A DNA stretch of 63,735 bases, filler included, from Coriobacteriales bacterium (GCA_031263105.1; 6 parts of 6 records of this genome joined end to end with filler, not necessarily neighbours in it); one strand, 5' to 3'. Numbered from the whole stretch's first letter, positions 12,001 through 18,000 are shown. Numbers are program-made.

Positions 12001-15000
12001 GCAGGTCCTTAAAGAGAACGAGCAGTACGTGATCCAGCAGAACATCCTCTCGCAGCATTATCGGCTTTTGGACAGGGAGGGGCGGCGCATCGTCTCGTCG
12101 TTCGACATCGACGACCTGCTGCCCCTGTTCCAAGAAAGGTAGGACGAGATGTACTCAGGCAACATGTTCCTGACCCTTATGCTCTATGCAGTACCGGTGA
12201 TGCTCGTCGTCCTCATCGTGGTGCTTGTGGAGGTTTCGAGGCTCAAGAGGGAGATAAGCGAGCTTCAGGGGCGGCAGGACGACTTGGAGGCCCTGCGCGG
12301 GCAGCCTGTTGTCTCGCCCGGGCGGCCCGTTTCCCCGCAGCCTGTCGGGCAGCCCGGGCAGCCTGTTACCGGGCAGCCCGCCCCCCAGCAGCCCGCCCCG
12401 CCGCCTTGGCCCGCCGCCCCGTCCGGGCAGCCTGTGTCCGGGCAGCCCGGGCAATCTGCGGCCCCGTACCCCGCGTCCTCGCAGTTCGCCCCCCATCTCG
12501 CCCCTCAACGGCCCGCCCCCCAGCCCCAGCTCGCCCCCCAGCCTCAACCTGCGGCCCCGTACCCCGCCCCCCAGCCCCATCTCGCTCCCCATCCTCAGTC
12601 CGCGCATCAGCCTTTCCCGCCTCCCCACACCTCCGCCCAGCCTCCCTCCCTTGAGNNNNNNNNNNNNNNNNNNNNNNNNNNNNNNNNNNNNNNNNNNNNT
12701 TAATTAATTAANNNNNNNNNNNNNNNNNNNNNNNNNNNNNNNNNNNNNNNNNNNNCCCCGCGGGGGGGGGGGGGGGGGGGGCAGCGGGACGCGAGGCGGC
12801 AGCGGAGTGTGGGCACTCTTGCCCTGCTGCATGCCATGCCTTGTCGCAGCTTCGCCAAGTGCGGTGCGCGATCAGGGTGCGAACAGGGCAAGGGCCTGTT
12901 TGTTGGGTTCGACGAAGCGGGGCTTCACCAGGCGTTCCAGGGCGGTTTCGAAGGCCGACCGGGGCAGGTCGATGGCTCCGGTGGACAGGGCGGCTCCGAG
13001 CAGGACGACGTTGAGGGCACGCGGCAATCCGACGGCGGCGACGGCGCGTGCGCCATCGACGGCAAGGAGCCTCCCGATGCGGCCGCACGCCTCGCAGGCA
13101 TGCAGATAGTCGAGCTCGGCGGTGCCGTCGTAGGCCACGGTGCCGAGGGTCGCCGTCACCGGCTTCTGCGTCTGCCTTGCGGTTACGACGGTGCCGCCTT
13201 CGCGCAGGTAGGCGAGGGCGCGCACGGTCTCTCCCGGCTCGAAGCCGAGCAGCAGGTCGGCGTGTCCCAAGGGCACGAGGGGGCTGAGCGGGTGAGCGTG
13301 ACAGTGAGCGTGACAGCGGGGACGGTACTGTTTTGTCACCGCCCGCGCATGCGCGGGCTGTGACAAAACAGTACCGTCCCCGCTGTCACGCTGCACCGTC
13401 CCCCCTGTCACACCCTCCCCCTGGTGCGGCGGCGACCCGATGCGCACGTGGCCGAGGACGCTGCCGCCGCGCTGGGCCATGCCGATGGTCTCGGCGGTAC
13501 GGACTGTCCGCCCCTCAAGCAGGGCCGCCTGTGCGAGCAGCTTGGAGGCGAGGACCGTTCCCTGTCCGCCGACGCCGGCGACGACGAAGTCGCTCATCGC
13601 TTGCCGCCCGCCGTCGAGCAGGCCGCCCCCGCCGTCTCCGCCCCGCCCGCCGCCGTGTCAGGAGCGCCTCCGTTCGTCCCGCCCGCCGTCCCGCCTTTGT
13701 CGGCAACGGGCGCGATGGCATCAAAGGCACAGAGGGAGGCACAGAGGCCGCAGCCATAGCAGAGCGCCTTGTCGACGGCGACCTGGTCGTCTTGCACCAT
13801 GAGCGCGGGGCATCCGATGCTGCGGAAGCAGACGAGGCAGCCGGTACAGGCCTCATTCGAGACGGCCATGCGCGGCTTCGGCGCAGCGACCGTGATGCAG
13901 GGGGCCCGGAAGACGACCGCGCTCGGCCCTTTGAACGCAACGGCGGCCCGCACCGTCTCGATGGCGCTGCGCGTCTCAAAGGGGTCGGCCTCGGCGACAT
14001 GCCCCACGCCCAAGGCACGCAGGATACCGGGTATGCGCAGCGCGCGCTCCGCGTCCCGCGCGGAGGCGTCGGCGCTCATGCGCATGCCGGTTCCGGGATG
14101 GGGCTGGGAGCCGGTCATGGCGGTGGTCGAGTTGTCGAGTATGCAGAGGGTGACGTCCGCCTGGTTGTAGGCGGCGTTCACCACGCCGGTAAGCCCGCTG
14201 GCAAAAAAGGTCGAGTCGCCGACGAACCCAAGGTGCGCCACGTCGGGCTGCGCCCAGTCCATGCCCTGCGGGATGGTGAGTCCCGCCCCCATGCACACGC
14301 AGGTGTCCACCATGTCGAGCGGCAGGGCGTTGCCGAGGGTGTAGCAGCCGATGTCCCCGCTGAACACCGCCTTGCGGCCCCGAAGGGCACGCTTCACCGC
14401 GAAGAACGACGCCCGATGGGGGCAGCCGGCGCAGAGCACGGGCGGCCTCGCAGGGAGCGTTGGCGCAACGGGCGTGTCGGATGCGGAGGGAGCGGGCGGG
14501 GCGGCGGATGTGGTGGGAGCGGCGGGCGCAACGGAGGCTGTCTGTGGGGAGAAGTTCGGGCCGTGCGGGACGGCGCCGCCCCGCATGCCCCCGCTCTTCT
14601 CCCCAAGCTGCTCCTGCAGATACGCCCTGAGCTGCTTCTCGATCGAGGCGACCGAGTTCTCGCCCGCCGTTGCCGCATGCCCCGTGAGCTTGCCGTGTAT
14701 CTCGACGGGCAGGTGGTGCCTGCCCGCGCATTGCAGCAGCTCCCGCTCGATGACCGGCTCAAGCTCCTCGAAGACGAGCACTTTGTCGAGGCCTTCGAGG
14801 AAGGCGCGGGCGGCCGTCTCGGGGAAGGGGAAGGGCGTGCTGACCTTGAGCAGGCGCAGCGGAACCCGCGCGGCAGGGGAGTCCTCTTGGGCGTTACCGT
14901 ACACCCCCCCACTCACCCCCCCACTGTCACCCCGAGCCACCCCCCCACTGTCATTCCGAGCGAAGCGAAGGTCCTTCGCTGTGCTCAGGATGAACTCCGC

Positions 15001-18000
15001 CGAGGAATCCTTGGGCGCATCAGCGCCCAACTGCAGCCGGGGGGACGCATCTGCCCGCAGTCGGCTGCTTCGCAGCCGAAGATTCCTCGGCTTCGCTCGG
15101 AATGACAGTGGGGGCGTGTACAGTAACTCTTGGGCGAGTTGCGCGAGTGCGTCGTGCAGGTAGGCGTAGCTGATGCCCCCTGCGGCGATGCCGATCGTCG
15201 CATCTTCCGCCTCGAGCTCGCGCCCCGCCTCCGCCTCGCAAGCGCCCGCCGCCGCACCGGCCCCCAGCCCGCTGAACTCCGCAGCAATCCTCGCCAGGCG
15301 CTCGTTGATCTCGAGGTGCCCCTCGAAGGCGCGGCGGGGGAAGACCACCCAGCGCGGCCCCCGGGAGAAGCCGTCTATCGCATGGGGCACGAAGGCGACC
15401 TCGGTCTCGACCGGTGCCGTGCCATGGCAGATGCGGGTGGTGGGGCGGACGATGACCGGCGTCGCGTAACGTTCCGAGAGGTCGAAGGCGTAGGGCACCA
15501 TCGCAAGGGCCTCCTCGGGGGTCGAGGGGTCGAGGAGGGGCACCTTGGCGAACTGCGCGTACTGCCGCGTGTCCTGCTCCGTCTGCGACGAGATGGGCCC
15601 GGGGTCGTCGGCGACGATGAGGACGAGGCCGCCCTGCACGCCGAGGTAGGGCAGGGACATGAGGGCGTCGGAAGCGACGTTGAGACCCACCTGCTTCATG
15701 GTCACGAGGGCGCGTGCGCCTGCGAATGACGCCCCCGCCCCCACCTCGAGCGCGGCCTTCTCGTTCGTGGACCACTCGACGTGGACGGCGGGTCGGCCCG
15801 TGCCGTCAAGGCCGAGGGCGGCAACGTGCGCCGCCATCGCCTCGAGCACCTCGGAGGACGGGGTGCCGGGATAGCCGCTCACCACGTTGACGCCCGCCCT
15901 GAGCGCACCAAGGGCAAGCGCCTGGTTTCCCATGCAGAGCTCGAGGCTCATGTTGTCCTGCTCGGGCGGGCGTGCGGTCGTTGCGTGCGGCCTGTCGGAC
16001 GCGGCCTACTCGCCCGCGCCCGCAGCGCCCGCATCGGCGCCCTCGGCACCTGCGTCGGTGCCCGCGTCGCCCTCGCCCTCGGCTGCGCCCTCGCCTGCGT
16101 CAGCGCCTGCGTCAGCGCCCTCGCCTTCGGCGCCCGTGCTGTCCCCGTTGACGGAGAGCAGCTCGATGTCGAAGGTCAGGGTCGCGTTCGCAGGGATGCT
16201 GCCCTGGCCGGCCTCGCCGTAGGCGAGCGACGGCGGGATGACGAGCTGGCGCGAGCCGCCCACCCTCATGCCGGGAAGGCCCTGGTCCCAGCCCTGGATG
16301 ACCTGGCCTGCGCCGATGGTGACCGGATAGGGCTCGCCCCTCTCGACGGAGGAGTCGAAGACCGTCCCGTCCTCCAGATAGCCGGTGTAGTGCACCATGA
16401 CCTCGTCGCCCTCTTTGGCCTCCGGCCCGGTTCCCACGACGATGTCGGTCTTCACGAGCTCGCCTGTGTCGGTTTCCGTCCCTTCGTCCCCGGCCGTGTC
16501 GGCGAGGGCCATGTCCACTGCGTAGGAAAGCCCTTCCGGCATGGGGTTGATGACGACCTCGTCCGAGTTGACAAGGTCGTCGAAGTACGTCTGCTGCGCC
16601 TCCGACTTCTTCTGGCTGACGAAGGTCTCGGTCAGCTTCTCGACGAGGCTTGTGGGAACGGAGGCGAAGTCGATCGTCGGCTCGGGTGTGGTCGTGACGT
16701 CGCCCTCAGCGCCGCCCTCGGTCCCGGCCTCGCCCTCACCCTCGGTCGCCGCTTCGGCTTCGGGAGCATCCTCGCCTTCGGTCCCGCCCTCGCCCTCGGT
16801 TGCAGGCGTGGCATCGGGCAGGACGAACTCCTCGGTCCACTTGACGATCATAAAGGCGTACTGCGGCGTGGTCTCGTCCCCAAAGTTCGTCTCGAGCACC
16901 TCGGATATCTCGTTCACGGGAAGGGCGTCAAGGGCCGCCTGCACGTCCACGGGAAGCGTCTGGGCGGCGCCCCAGCCGAGGTCGCCTCCGTCGGTCTGGG
17001 CATTGGCGGCTTGCGAGTACTCCTTGGCGACCTCGTCGAAGTCGGTGCCCTCGCGCAGCTTCGCGAGGGCCTCGTCGGCCTTCGGCCTCACGACGTCTGC
17101 CGTGTTGGCCGACGTTTCGACCGCCGCGTCCCCGTCACCGGCATCTGCGGTGCCGTCTCCGGCACCCTCCGTGCCGGCATCCCCGGCCGCCGCGTCCCCG
17201 GTGTCCCCAGTACCCTCGGTGCCAGTGCCGTCCCCGGCATCTGCGGCCCCTTCGCCCTCCGTGCCCGTATCCTCGGCAGCAGGCGCGTCGAAGGGCAGGT
17301 AGATCACAGAGACGCGCTTGCCGGCATAGGGGGAGGCGTTCTCGACCACATAGGTCTCGATCTCCTCCTGCGTGGGCGTGGCATCGGCGACCTGTGACTC
17401 CACGAGCTGCTGGGAGACGTTGCGCGCCTCGAGCTCCGTGCGGTAGGCGGCCTCGCTGGCGTAGCCCATGGATTTCAGATAGTCCTCATAGGTGCCATCG
17501 GAACCCTCGATGCTCTTCTTGCTGTCCTCGATCTCCTGGTCGATCTGCGCGGCGTCCGGCGTGATGCCCGCCGCCTCGGCCCTCTGCAGGATGAGCGTGA
17601 AGATGGCGAACTGGTTGCGGATGACGAACTCCCTGATCGTCTCGGGGGTGAAGTTCGCGTTCTTCAGCAGCTGCGCCCATGCGACGTCGTCTCGGGGCTC
17701 CCCTGTGGTCTGGTCGAGCCGGAAGCTCTCGATGCGGACGGTCACGTCGGCCTCGGATATCTCGGTGCCGTTGACCGTTGCGGCGACCAGTGACACGGGG
17801 TCGGCGGGCTTTGCGCAGCCGATGAGCGCTACGCTCAGGAGCAGGGAAAGCACCAGTGCACTGGCGGTCGTTATGACGCTTCTCGTGAATCTCATGGAAC
17901 AACCTTTCGTATAAGACCTTGGCGGCACAAGCCCCTCATCAAAGGTGCGCCTGCCAACCCCGGCCTCGCGCCGTGAGGCACGCAGACGAATCGGGCGACA

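What a model noticed while it worked through the whole genome (the two positions that open the first line are those of the whole stretch)
13597..15951. A mobile palindromic repeat sits in frame inside conserved enzyme genes (RPE-like)
Copies or modules of this genome's MITE family lie inside protein-coding genes in a stop-free frame, so the genes stay single ORFs with 65-170 extra residues. Four cases are verified. These are IorA (C204:842-3196, insert about 2108-2380) and DapF (C103:1729-2928, insert about 2089-2322). The other two are Mfd (C225:35-3700, insert about 1001-1522) and GpmI (C226:8052-9830, insert about 8694-8915). Six further genes show the same pattern: PheT on C43, a HisC-like gene on C62, a CoA activase on C224, an FtsW-like gene on C76, a membrane protein on C203 and the giant C3 protein.
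Evidence so far: - Coding score is positive in the same frame on both sides of each insert. - iorA holds a whole element, GTTAC..GTAAC, flanked by the 8-bp duplication GCCCAAGA. - Orthologous ORFs in G008, G005, G007 and G001 join IorA residues ~272 and ~364 within 12-24 nt. - The DapF insert is a gap in 3 of 3 aligned orthologues, and both catalytic Cys motifs are kept. - Mfd has 174 residues where 4 relatives have 0-17; its identity is confirmed against 6ac6 at E 8e-200. - GpmI has 74 residues where PDB 1ejj has 3. - Insert DNA matches up to 471 other copies.
(Added by a program. Inside this text positions count along the whole contig: they may not be those of the stretch shown here. "Call 12" and the like, gene names such as g00115 and contig names such as C1 are that model's own, and its searches are not shown. 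The text may have been shortened before it was handed on; [...] marks where a part breaks off. The agent that wrote the report below was given it as the finding of a first reader that could run no searches.)

Follow-up and report, generated by a model that had tools for sequence, protein, structure and literature searches.

The report
Mobile repeats translated inside housekeeping genes
A termite-gut actinobacterium carries hundreds of small mobile palindromic DNA repeats, and about twenty of them sit in frame inside essential enzyme genes, apparently read through as extra floppy protein loops, as is already known from Rickettsia.

Summary
iorA (window 13594-15951, minus strand, 785 aa) contains a complete 235-bp element (14893-15127) with GTTAC/GTAAC ends and a perfect 8-bp target duplication. 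Element plus duplication is 243 bp, or 81 codons, and the gene stays one ORF. All 10 aligned orthologues lack the insert. AlphaFold models it as a disordered loop in an otherwise confident fold. Independent contigs of a public run cross both junctions.

The element belongs to a real MITE family: 529 loci, and 36 of 56 end-pairs have an 8-bp duplication with at most 1 mismatch. Genome-wide I found about 19 in-frame intragenic repeat copies from at least four families. For 13 genes, relatives lack the insert: IorA, IorB, DapF, Mfd, GpmI, PheT, a HisC-like gene, ArgJ, Der, LarC, a LeuA-like gene, MurT and a U32 peptidase.

The main family is not built to be read: 1.28 of 6 frames are open, as in shuffles. 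Its in-frame copies are therefore rare survivors of selection. Two small hairpin families are nearly stop-free in all six frames and lie mostly in ORFs.

It works like Rickettsia palindromic elements but is not a member of that family. This is a new member of a known kind. There are no RNA or protein data.

The parts
13594..15951 (-). iorA, indolepyruvate:ferredoxin oxidoreductase alpha subunit; a single 785-aa ORF that carries the insert
   Evidence: ORF. Pfam POR_N, TPP_enzyme_C and Fer4. Closest database proteins are named IorA by their sources. 7887 homologues at E<=1e-30 among 7997 scored.
14893..15127 (.). 235-bp MITE copy of family F1, from GTTACCGTACAC to GTGTACAGTAAC; it encodes IorA residues about 275-353 of the 81-aa insert
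   Evidence: Sequence. Fold z = -8.75. 529 related loci. Absent from 10 of 10 orthologues. AF2 pLDDT is below 50 for residues 279-358.
14885..14892 (.). Left copy of the 8-bp target-site duplication TCTTGGGC
   Evidence: Read directly. Perfect match, listed.
15128..15135 (.). Right copy of the 8-bp target-site duplication TCTTGGGC
   Evidence: Read directly. Perfect match, listed.
12872..13597 (-). iorB, the beta subunit (241 aa), which also carries an in-frame repeat
   Evidence: Pfam POR in two stretches; the second starts at profile position 40. tblastn alignments to five relatives.
13298..13420 (.). F3b palindrome inside iorB (arms GGGGACGGTACTGTTTTGTCAC / GTGACAAAACAGTACCGTCCCC); it supplies about 41 of about 49 extra loop residues
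   Evidence: Multiplicity 27, in frame and open. 4 of 5 relatives have 9-36 nt at this site; G016 has an unrelated expansion of about 60 aa. Only sub-threshold hairpin matches in Rfam.
58135..61074 (-). U32 peptidase ORF (stop to stop, 980 aa) on contig C210
   Evidence: Pfam Peptidase_U32 and DUF3656; the latter spans 166 aa for 108 profile positions.
59299..59424 (.). F3a hairpin element in frame inside the U32 peptidase gene
   Evidence: 5 of 5 relatives with HSPs on both sides have 0-27 nt where the query has 40-52 aa.
4531..6222 (+). 563-aa multi-pass membrane protein ORF on contig C203
   Evidence: ORF and translation.
5437..5516 (.). Short F1/F4-type core hairpin in frame in that ORF (peptide PTVIPSGGAAGSSAAAEESLGP); not checked against orthologues
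   Evidence: Multiplicity 36. Same frame open, flank scores 0.57 and 0.24.
18106..18290 (.). Another repeat copy (multiplicity 242) at the 5' end of the ORF 16006-18393; probably upstream of the true start
   Evidence: neither flank scores as coding.

Best explanation
A non-autonomous DNA transposon (a MITE) burst in this termite-gut Coriobacteriales lineage. Its canonical form is about 162 bp with roughly 35-nt terminal inverted repeats and an 8-bp target duplication. One 235-bp copy landed in iorA, in a linker that varies in length between a helix and a strand of the middle domain.

Element plus duplication adds 243 nt. The gene's frame through the element is one of only 2 of its 6 frames without a stop. 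The gene therefore stayed a single ORF, and the element is most likely translated as an 81-residue flexible surface loop rich in Pro, Ser, Gly and Arg, which the enzyme tolerates.

The same filter explains about 18 further in-frame copies, from at least four repeat families, in other housekeeping genes. Insertions that shift the frame, bring a stop or hit structured parts are lost; a few in tolerant loops survive.

Shown: mobility, insertion, absence from orthologues, the intact ORF and conserved catalytic columns. Inferred: translation of the insert, retained enzyme activity, and near-neutrality.
For: **Mobility**
- Of 56 GTTAC..GTAAC end-pairs, 28 have a perfect 8-bp flanking duplication and 8 more have 1 mismatch. 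The duplicated sequences differ from site to site.
- Fifteen canonical copies of 155-170 bp align almost base for base.

**The iorA site**
- The duplication is perfect and the addition is 243 nt.
- 10 of 10 orthologues have 9-50 residues where G000 has 96.
- 119 of the 120 best database hits are 42-72% identical proteins whose best local alignment covers at most 63% of the query; the remaining one is the protein itself.

**Assembly**
- In run X1 one contig covers 14400-14972 and another covers 15089-15600, each with 0 differences, at depths 21.4 and 24.2. They cross the left junction by 80 nt and the right junction by 39 nt.
- No joint listed there skips the element.

**The gene looks alive**
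- Coding score is 0.43-0.81 on both sides.
- All invariant columns of a 60-sequence alignment, including the Cys clusters, are by definition present in this protein.
- The AF2 model has pTM 0.80. Only residues 279-358, between helix 259-278 and strand 365-370, and a few other loops fall below pLDDT 50.

**The wider pattern**
- Relatives lack the insert in IorB (4 of 5), DapF (2 of 2), Mfd (5 of 5), GpmI (5 of 5), PheT (5 of 5), HisC-like (4 of 4) and ArgJ (3 of 3).
- The same holds for Der (5 of 5), LarC (5 of 5), LeuA-like (3 of 3), MurT (3 of 4) and U32 (5 of 5).
- Pfam domains lie on both sides of the inserts.

**The selection filter**
- F1 elements have 1.28 of 6 frames open against 1.35 in shuffles.
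- (Length + 8) mod 3 is spread 15/11/10.
- Only 5 of 265 non-edge F1 regions are in frame inside genes.
- Among repeats with same-strand coding flanks that are not in frame, the high-copy ones lie just after the upstream gene's stop codon.

**Loop-like peptides**
- Inserts have P 11.7% against 6.3% in the host parts, S 11.7% against 5.4%, L 5.6% against 10.2% and I 0.5% against 2.9%.
Against: - There is no transcript, peptide or activity evidence. No RNA run was listed for this stretch.
- The relatives belong to other genera (IorA identity 46-73% in HSPs), so no same-species empty site was seen. The frequency of the insert in the population is unknown, because contigs drop rare variants.
- Low AF2 confidence in the insert is expected for any segment without homologues, so it is weak proof of disorder.
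- My screen required an open frame, so out-of-frame intragenic copies could only show up in the 23 'same strand' cases. I read those by ORF geometry alone, not by homology.
- No cognate transposase was found.
- The bin is 86% complete with 6.5% contamination.
- An intact paralogue elsewhere cannot be excluded. The only other G000 hit outside the repeat itself was one 32%-identical N-terminal-domain paralogue on C187.
Confidence: 0.8

Rival explanations
1. The interrupted genes are dead or dying pseudogenes. Their ORFs are still open only because the insertions are recent and the GC-rich sequence rarely makes stops.
For: - The burst looks recent, since canonical copies are nearly identical.
- Random 160-240-bp windows of this 64.5% GC genome have 2.68 of 6 frames open.
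- The assembly is incomplete (86%), so spare copies could be missed.
Against: - The hosts include normally single-copy core genes: pheT, der, gpmI, dapF, murT, mfd and dxs.
- At about 0.21 for an open frame times 1/3 for length, roughly 7% of F1 insertions would keep an ORF, yet I found no clear out-of-frame intragenic copy.
- Flanks keep a strong coding score and all family-invariant residues.
- The C117 copy has degenerate ends and no recognisable duplication, so it is probably older, yet its ORF is still open.
Confidence: 0.06
2. The inserts are removed before the protein is made or matured, as an intron, an intein or a translational bypass element, so the enzymes are unchanged.
For: - The elements fold into very stable hairpins.
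- From recall, not checked here: mobile GC-rich bypass elements inside genes are known in a yeast mitochondrion.
Against: - No Rfam intron or ribozyme reaches threshold in 12756-18500; there are only sub-threshold miRNA-like hairpin hits.
- Pfam finds no intein or Hint domain in IorA.
- Removal would put no constraint on frame or stops. Yet every intragenic copy verified is a multiple of three in effect and is stop-free in the host frame.
Confidence: 0.03
3. The filled iorA allele is an assembly or binning artefact, or a minority variant in the population.
For: - 284 of 500 contig ends carry a repeat.
- Contamination is 6.5%.
- Some contig pairs are 80-86% identical over kilobases, which suggests a second strain in the bin.
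Against: - An assembler cannot create a perfect 8-bp duplication of unique target sequence.
- Two contigs from an independent assembly of run X1 cross both junctions with 0 differences, at the same depth as the flanks, and no empty-site joint is listed.
- X1 may be the source sample, so this is not an independent population.
Confidence: 0.03
4. Some inserts have been co-opted and now add a useful property, such as a docking, regulatory or solubility loop. In this reading the F2-long and F3a families are specialised to live in coding regions.
For: - F3a has 5.3 of 6 frames open against 1.77 in shuffles, and F2-long 5.0 against 2.84.
- 5 of 10 F3a loci are in frame inside genes and 4 more sit at gene borders.
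- 6 of 6 long F2 copies lie in ORFs, 5 of them in the same translation frame.
- Both subunits of the same enzyme, IorA and IorB, carry inserts.
Against: - Copies within a family share descent, and the arms of a palindrome are not independent. The stop-free excess therefore amounts to about one event per family; my rough estimate is p of 0.01-0.03.
- The insert sites are loops that vary freely in relatives.
- The IorA insert peptide has no match in 5.8 billion proteins other than itself.
- No conservation across species can be shown.
Confidence: 0.08

Closest known systems
Rickettsia palindromic elements (RPEs; Ogata et al. 2000, as summarised in PMC10969869 passages, and PMC3184786 passages)
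   Same: Short palindromic repeats from several families are inserted in frame into unrelated metabolic and housekeeping genes. The ORF is preserved, the inserts add peptide segments judged compatible with the fold, and this happens at unusually high frequency in one lineage.
   Different: - The host is a high-GC Coriobacteriales gut bacterium, not an obligate intracellular alphaproteobacterium.
- The main family here has clear terminal inverted repeats and an 8-bp target duplication and is 98% extragenic.
- No sequence relation to RPEs was tested.
- The main family carries no conserved open frame, whereas each RPE is described as encoding a conserved peptide.
Bacterial MITEs that make in-frame fusions (Nezha and Anabaena MITEs, ERIC/RU elements, BOX, Coxiella QMITE1/2; PMC3184786 and PMC5896051 passages)
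   Same: They are non-autonomous, with terminal inverted repeats, target duplications, stable hairpins and many copies. Occasional copies are fused to or lie inside ORFs. QMITE2 has 7-11-nt direct repeats and some in-frame insertions.
   Different: In those reports most fusions extend gene ends or lie in hypothetical proteins. Here internal insertions hit at least 13 well-conserved enzymes, with domains on both sides. No donor IS is identified here.
REP/BIME elements and their RAYT (Y1) transposases (PMC2817692 and PMC3733652, search listing only)
   Same: The F2, F3a and F3b units are short GC-rich hairpins without visible target duplications, sometimes concatenated. Four Y1_Tnp genes exist in the genome.
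   Different: REPs are extragenic by definition. No link between the Y1 genes and these hairpins was shown. The iorA element has a target duplication, which Y1 transposition does not make (from general knowledge of IS200/IS605).

Membership tests
[quoted passage not shown] | Short (under about 600 bp) with no transposase gene | tested here: met
   The iorA copy is 235 bp and the canonical copies are 155-170 bp. Two of its 6 frames are stop-free, but 235 bp cannot hold a transposase gene.
[quoted passage not shown] | Terminal inverted repeats | tested here: met
   GTTACCGTACAC / GTGTACAGTAAC match at 11 of 12 positions in iorA. The family consensus shows complementary ends over roughly 35 nt.
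[quoted passage not shown] | Target-site duplication of fixed length and variable sequence | tested here: met
   The duplication is 8 bp. Of 56 end-pairs, 28 are perfect and 8 have 1 mismatch; all 36 duplicated sequences differ.
[quoted passage not shown] | High copy number, dispersed | tested here: met
   529 merged loci on 206 of 250 contigs.
[quoted passage not shown] | Filled versus empty homologous sites | tested here: met
   10 of 10 iorA orthologues are empty at the site. They are from other genera; no same-species empty site is available.
[quoted passage not shown] | A cognate autonomous IS with the same terminal repeats | tested here: inconclusive
   - No end-pair 600-4000 bp apart with a duplication.
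- No ISL3, IS256, IS1595 or IS66 transposase.
- Three DDE_Tnp_1 and four Y1_Tnp genes exist, none bounded by the ends.
- The assembly is 86% complete, and its contigs break at repeats.
Rickettsia palindromic elements (RPE) | Palindromic repeat inserted in frame in protein-coding genes with the ORF preserved | tested here: met
   iorA plus 12 further genes checked against relatives.
Rickettsia palindromic elements (RPE) | Sequence homology to an RPE family, or occurrence in Rickettsia | not tested
   - No RPE sequence was on hand to compare.
- The closest IorA proteins are from Coriobacteriales MAGs.
- The MITE end pattern had 0 exact matches in 185,579 species genomes.
- I therefore do not file it as an RPE.
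Rickettsia palindromic elements (RPE) | Element carries a conserved ORF or peptide | tested here: not met
   This is not met for the family of the iorA element: 1.28 of 6 frames are open, no more than in shuffles. F2-long and F3a come closer, with 5.0 and 5.3 of 6.
Rickettsia palindromic elements (RPE) | Insert expressed as part of the protein | not testable with these tools
   No RNA holder was listed, and no proteome is available.
Indolepyruvate:ferredoxin oxidoreductase alpha subunit (host gene) | Pyr domain, ThDP-binding PP domain, C-terminal 2x[4Fe-4S] Cys motifs, and an adjacent iorB | tested here: met
   - Pfam POR_N, TPP_enzyme_C and Fer4.
- Invariant Cys at 702, 705, 708, 714, 731, 734, 737 and 741.
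- iorB lies directly downstream, with Pfam POR.
- Sources name the homologues IorA.
- Substrate specificity was not tested.

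The most novel reading that the evidence does not exclude
Beside an ordinary MITE burst, this genome holds two small hairpin families that may be specialised parasites of coding sequence. They are F3a (about 78-bp core, 10 loci) and F2-long (about 117 bp, or 39 codons, 6 loci).

Both are nearly stop-free in all six frames and lie almost only inside ORFs or at gene borders. 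F2-long recurs in the same translation frame in unrelated proteins.

That would be a convergent, RPE-like way of life in Actinomycetota. It would also give a second system, independent of Rickettsia, for asking how selfish DNA spreads within genes and seeds new protein loops.
Probability: 0.3. Interest if true: 0.75.

Novelty: new member of a known kind. Interest (0 to 1): 0.55.

Why it matters
In-frame colonisation of conserved genes by selfish repeats has so far been described at this scale essentially only for Rickettsia (review passages). This would be a second dense case, in an unrelated high-GC gut symbiont and with a transposition signature visible at the insertion site.

- **For evolution.** It gives a natural data set of tolerated loop insertions of 30-170 residues in at least 13 well-studied enzymes. 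It also offers a way to test whether small, bottlenecked symbiont populations let such insertions fix, and whether they seed new protein segments.
- **For annotation.** These inserts inflate protein lengths, split domain hits, and break assemblies: 284 of 500 contig ends carry a repeat.

Tried and rejected
- **RNA evidence.** No RNA holder was listed for the stretch, so expression could not be examined.
- **First screen too narrow.** Using only the iorA element and 240-nt flanks, it found 3 in-frame cases and missed DapF, Mfd and GpmI. I replaced it with a whole-genome self-comparison.
- **Screen hits set aside.** Of the 58 'in-frame open' regions, 36 had a normal coding score inside. I set them aside as paralogous or low-complexity coding repeats, not mobile elements. 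Among the 22 kept, C175 (Gly-rich internal repeats), C44 (poly-Pro), and C94 and C203:2922-3062 (Ala-rich) are probably not mobile elements either. They are not counted in the roughly 19.
- **Two host-gene checks that did not settle.**
  - The Aminotran_5 (SufS-like) gene on C117 had only one weak two-part match, in G001.
  - The CoA activase was inconclusive.
- **ArgJ second extra segment.** Residues about 181-223 are single-copy Ala/Pro-rich sequence, not a repeat.
- **Rfam.** Nothing reached threshold.
- **Foldseek.** The model matched only generic ThDP-enzyme and 2-oxoacid oxidoreductase folds. No solved IOR was found by sequence beyond an N-terminal domain match to 1yd7.
- **Insert peptide.** The search of 5.8 billion proteins returned only the protein itself (only lengths of 431-1374 aa were searched).
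- **Donor IS.** The search found nothing decisive.
- **Literature.** A search for MITEs in termite-gut Coriobacteriales returned 3 papers, none mentioning MITEs.

Full report
**What is at the coordinates**

The window is six contigs of one metagenome-assembled genome joined by runs of N. Positions 12756-36928 are contig C204. The genome has 2.91 Mb in 250 contigs and 64.5% GC. It is 86% complete with 6.5% contamination.

Window 13594-15951 on the minus strand is one 785-aa ORF. Pfam finds POR_N at 15-182, TPP_enzyme_C at 533-680 and ferredoxin-type hits at the C-terminus. Its best database relatives are 66-72% identical proteins from Coriobacteriales MAGs, which their sources name indolepyruvate ferredoxin oxidoreductase alpha subunit. 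The next ORF downstream, 12872-13597 on the minus strand, is the beta subunit with Pfam POR.

**The insert in iorA**

- Reading the DNA, a 235-bp element runs from GTTACCGTACAC at 14893 to GTGTACAGTAAC at 15127.
- The 8-mer TCTTGGGC stands directly before it (14885-14892) and directly after it (15128-15135).
- Element plus one copy of the duplication is 243 nt, or 81 codons, so the frame is kept.
- Removing it restores ...LAQLAQE|DSPAARVPLRLLKV.
- The strand folds into a long hairpin at -76.2 kcal/mol, z = -8.75, and 0 of 200 shuffles fold as well.
- Only 2 of the element's 6 frames lack a stop, and the gene uses one of them.

**Is it absent elsewhere?**

- In a search of 31 genomes, 29 had a match. 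The orthologous ORFs of G008, G012 and G007 join query residues about 272 and 364 across 12 nt. G001 does so across 15 nt and G005 across 24 nt.
- In a MAFFT alignment with 10 orthologous ORFs, all 10 have a gap over the 81 residues. They hold 9-50 residues between columns 270 and 366 where G000 has 96.
- The site is therefore a linker whose length varies naturally.
- Among 7887 homologues at E<=1e-30, the 120 listed include no protein with the insert other than the protein itself.
- A search with the insert alone against 5.8 billion proteins found only the protein itself (lengths 431-1374 aa only).

**Is it an assembly artefact?**

One public run, X1 (a termite gut metagenome), holds 97% of the sampled words of 14400-15600. 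It may be the source sample.
- One of its independently built contigs covers 14400-14972 and another covers 15089-15600, each with 0 differences, at depths 21.4 and 24.2. They cross the left junction by 80 nt and the right junction by 39 nt.
- None of the four joints listed skips just the element.
- In a second run, X2, a contig about 94% identical ends 21 nt inside the element. That is too short to count as bridging.
- A perfect duplication of unique target sequence is not something an assembler makes.
- Contigs drop rare variants, so the allele frequency stays unknown.

**Is the gene alive?**

- The codon log-odds score, trained on 797 long ORFs, is 0.43-0.81 in the gene's frame on both sides. 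It falls to about 0 in the insert.
- In a 60-sequence alignment this protein carries every invariant residue, including the cysteines of the Fe-S motifs.
- AlphaFold2 with that alignment gives pTM 0.80. Residues 279-358 are below pLDDT 50, between confident helix 259-278 and strand 365-370.
- Low confidence is expected for a segment that no homologue has, so this shows only that the insert sits between intact elements of the middle domain.
- Foldseek matches generic ThDP enzymes and 2-oxoacid:ferredoxin oxidoreductases. No IOR structure was found by sequence.

**The repeat family is a real MITE**

- blastn of the element gives 1147 HSPs in 529 merged loci on 206 of 250 contigs.
- Of 56 pairs of GTTAC...GTAAC ends 60-600 bp apart, 28 have a perfect 8-bp flanking duplication and 8 have one mismatch. 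The modal length is 162-164 bp.
- Fifteen canonical copies align almost base for base, with complementary ends over roughly 35 nt. The 36 duplicated 8-mers all differ and are 57% GC. This points to a recent burst.
- In 34 genomes of the same family only 7, counting G000, gave any match. Outside G000 these were short matches to the inner hairpin.
- An exact-pattern scan for the element's end found 0 matches in representative genomes of 185,579 species. Records of the window's own genome may be left out of that scan.
- I found no donor IS; details are under Tried and rejected.

**Genome-wide pattern**

- A self-comparison marked 769 short repeat regions totalling 163 kb. Of these, 288 lie within about 180 bp of a contig end.
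- 284 of 500 contig ends carry a repeat.
- For the other 481 regions I scored 180-nt flanks in all six frames. In 58 regions both flanks were coding in the same open frame.
- 36 of those 58 had a normal coding score inside and were set aside as paralogous or low-complexity coding repeats. That left 22.
- Assigned to five representative sequences, the regions fall as follows:

| Family | Regions | At contig ends | In frame inside genes |
|---|---|---|---|
| F1 (the iorA type) | 433 | 168 | 5 |
| F2 | 73 | 24 | 7 |
| F3a | 10 | 0 | 5 |
| F3b | 19 | 16 | 1 (iorB) |
| F4 (the Mfd type) | 32 | 18 | 0 by the screen |

- The Mfd array missed the flank threshold but is clearly in frame.
- Counting the family-assigned cases plus Mfd gives about 19 genes.
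- Pfam places known domains on both sides of the inserts. The hosts are Der, LarC, PheT, a HisC-like aminotransferase, Dxs, ArgJ, DapF, a SpoIIE-type phosphatase, a class-V aminotransferase, a P-type ATPase, a LeuA-like synthase, a U32 peptidase, a CoA-enzyme activase, GpmI, MurT, Mfd and IorB.

**Checks against relatives**

For most genes I searched five relatives (G008, G016, G005, G012, G001). The flanking HSPs abut or lie a few codons apart.

| Gene | Relatives lacking the insert |
|---|---|
| IorB | 4 of 5 (G016 has its own unrelated expansion of about 60 aa in the same loop) |
| DapF | 2 of 2 with a match |
| Mfd | 5 of 5 |
| GpmI | 5 of 5 (74 residues where PDB 1ejj has 3) |
| PheT | 5 of 5 |
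| HisC-like | 4 of 4 |
| ArgJ | 3 of 3 |
| Der | 5 of 5 |
| LarC | 5 of 5 (three by split HSPs, two by a shorter span) |
| LeuA-like | 3 of 3 |
| MurT | 3 of 4 |
| U32 peptidase (different relatives) | 5 of 5 with HSPs on both sides |

- The class-V aminotransferase gave one weak two-part match.
- The CoA activase was inconclusive.

**How it most likely works**

- F1 is not adapted to being read. Its 36 clean copies have on average 1.28 of 6 frames open, against 1.35 in dinucleotide shuffles and 2.68 in random genomic windows. (Length + 8) mod 3 is spread 15/11/10.
- Roughly 7% of insertions into a gene would therefore keep the ORF.
- Only 5 of 265 non-edge F1 regions are in frame inside genes.
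- The 23 regions with same-strand coding flanks that are not in frame are, for the high-copy ones, placed 1-52 nt after the upstream gene's stop codon. I judged this from ORF geometry, not homology.
- This fits random insertion followed by loss of everything except frame-preserving, stop-free copies in tolerant loops.
- The inserted peptides are enriched in Pro, Ser, Thr and Gly and poor in Leu, Ile, Met and Tyr.
- If the inserts were removed from the RNA or protein, there would be no reason for them to be in frame and stop-free. No intron, ribozyme or intein signal was found.
- Translation and retained activity remain inferences.

**Two families that behave differently**

- F3a has a core CACAGGGGGACGGTTCTTTTGTGC, a loop of about 28 nt, then the complement. 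It occurs at 10 loci.
- Five F3a loci are in frame inside genes (Der, LarC, ArgJ, U32, MurT). Four sit in or next to the first or last codons of genes (dxr, an Nramp-type gene, a glycosyltransferase, and gatA/gatB). One has non-coding flanks.
- All three frames of the F3a hairpin are used in different hosts.
- The long form of F2 is about 117 bp and built of four small hairpins. All 6 copies lie in ORFs, and 5 are read in the same frame, giving STFPSxGGGSSARETxSVSSENGPxGP.
- F3a has 5.3 of 6 frames open against 1.77 in shuffles; F2-long has 5.0 against 2.84.
- Copies share descent and palindrome arms are not independent, so each family counts as about one observation. This is suggestive, not proven.
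- I saw no target duplication for these families.
- The DapF and Mfd inserts are tandem half-modules. In Mfd there are four units of 93 bp, or 31 codons each.

**Comparison with what is known**

- A 2024 review describes in-frame MITE fusions in several bacteria. It singles out Rickettsia palindromic elements as taking this 'to an unusually high level' (PMC10969869, passages read).
- The 2011 review by Delihas lists repeats fused internally to coding sequences (PMC3184786, passages).
- The Coxiella QMITE paper reports occasional in-frame insertions, mostly in hypothetical proteins or at gene ends (PMC5896051, passages).
- A search for MITE work on termite-gut Coriobacteriales returned 3 papers, none mentioning MITEs.
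- The present case works like RPEs. It is a bona fide MITE for the iorA family and is not shown to be a member of the RPE families. I rate it a new member of a known kind.

**Limits**

- All relatives are from other genera.
- The bin may hold a second strain, because contig pairs 80-86% identical over kilobases exist.
- The in-frame screen is heuristic and conservative, and near-threshold cases exist.
- There are no expression data.
- Supplements of the papers were not opened.

Noticed in passing
These include Acidobacteriota, Chloroflexota/Dehalococcoidia, Bacteroidota, Gemmatimonadota, Alphaproteobacteria, Nitrospirota, Desulfobacterota and Spirochaetia. By my estimate about 0.1 matches are expected by chance. 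The hairpin core seems to be a very widespread repeat module of unknown meaning.
   Followed up: partly
window 13298-13420 and 14893-15127: Both subunits of one enzyme, IorA and IorB, carry in-frame repeats from different families. In relative G016 the IorB loop has its own unrelated low-complexity expansion of about 60 aa at the same place.
   Followed up: yes
G000 contig ends, for example window 1-153, 37029-37175, 42190-42325, 49930-50201, 57702-57802, 57909-58126 and 63488-63659: 284 of 500 contig ends carry a repeat. 16 of 19 F3b regions lie at contig ends, as if F3b were the end of a longer multi-copy element that did not assemble. That element could be the missing autonomous partner.
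   Followed up: no
window 14480-14620 (IorA residues about 446-495); L026 (ArgJ) residues about 181-223; window 2922-3062 (PurH): Single-copy or low-copy Ala/Pro/Ser-rich stretches also lengthen loops of conserved enzymes here. These are extra low-complexity residues that are not mobile repeats.
   Followed up: partly
L037 (Mfd, contig C225) residues about 330-500: The Mfd insert is a tandem array of four 93-bp (31-codon) units between the UvrB-interaction and RID domains. The expansion appears to have occurred in place and in multiples of three.
   Followed up: partly
L029 (contig C117), ORF residues 151-190 and 391-480: One ORF holds an F2 copy near its 5' end, possibly upstream of the true start. 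It also holds a 256-bp F1 copy with degenerate ends inside a class-V aminotransferase, between the VPWQ and THVSNV motifs.
   Followed up: partly
G000 contigs C133/C138, C133/C231 and C90/C165: Kilobase-long contig pairs 80-91% identical, together with 6.5% contamination, suggest that a second related strain or species is mixed into the bin.
   Followed up: no
G000 C168:12773-13138, C197:3704-4069, C191:3247-3579, C165:2358-2645: There are four Y1_Tnp (IS200/IS605 or RAYT-type) genes. Two of them have a high-copy repeat about 150 nt from one end. With about 500 copies in the genome this may be coincidence.
   Followed up: partly
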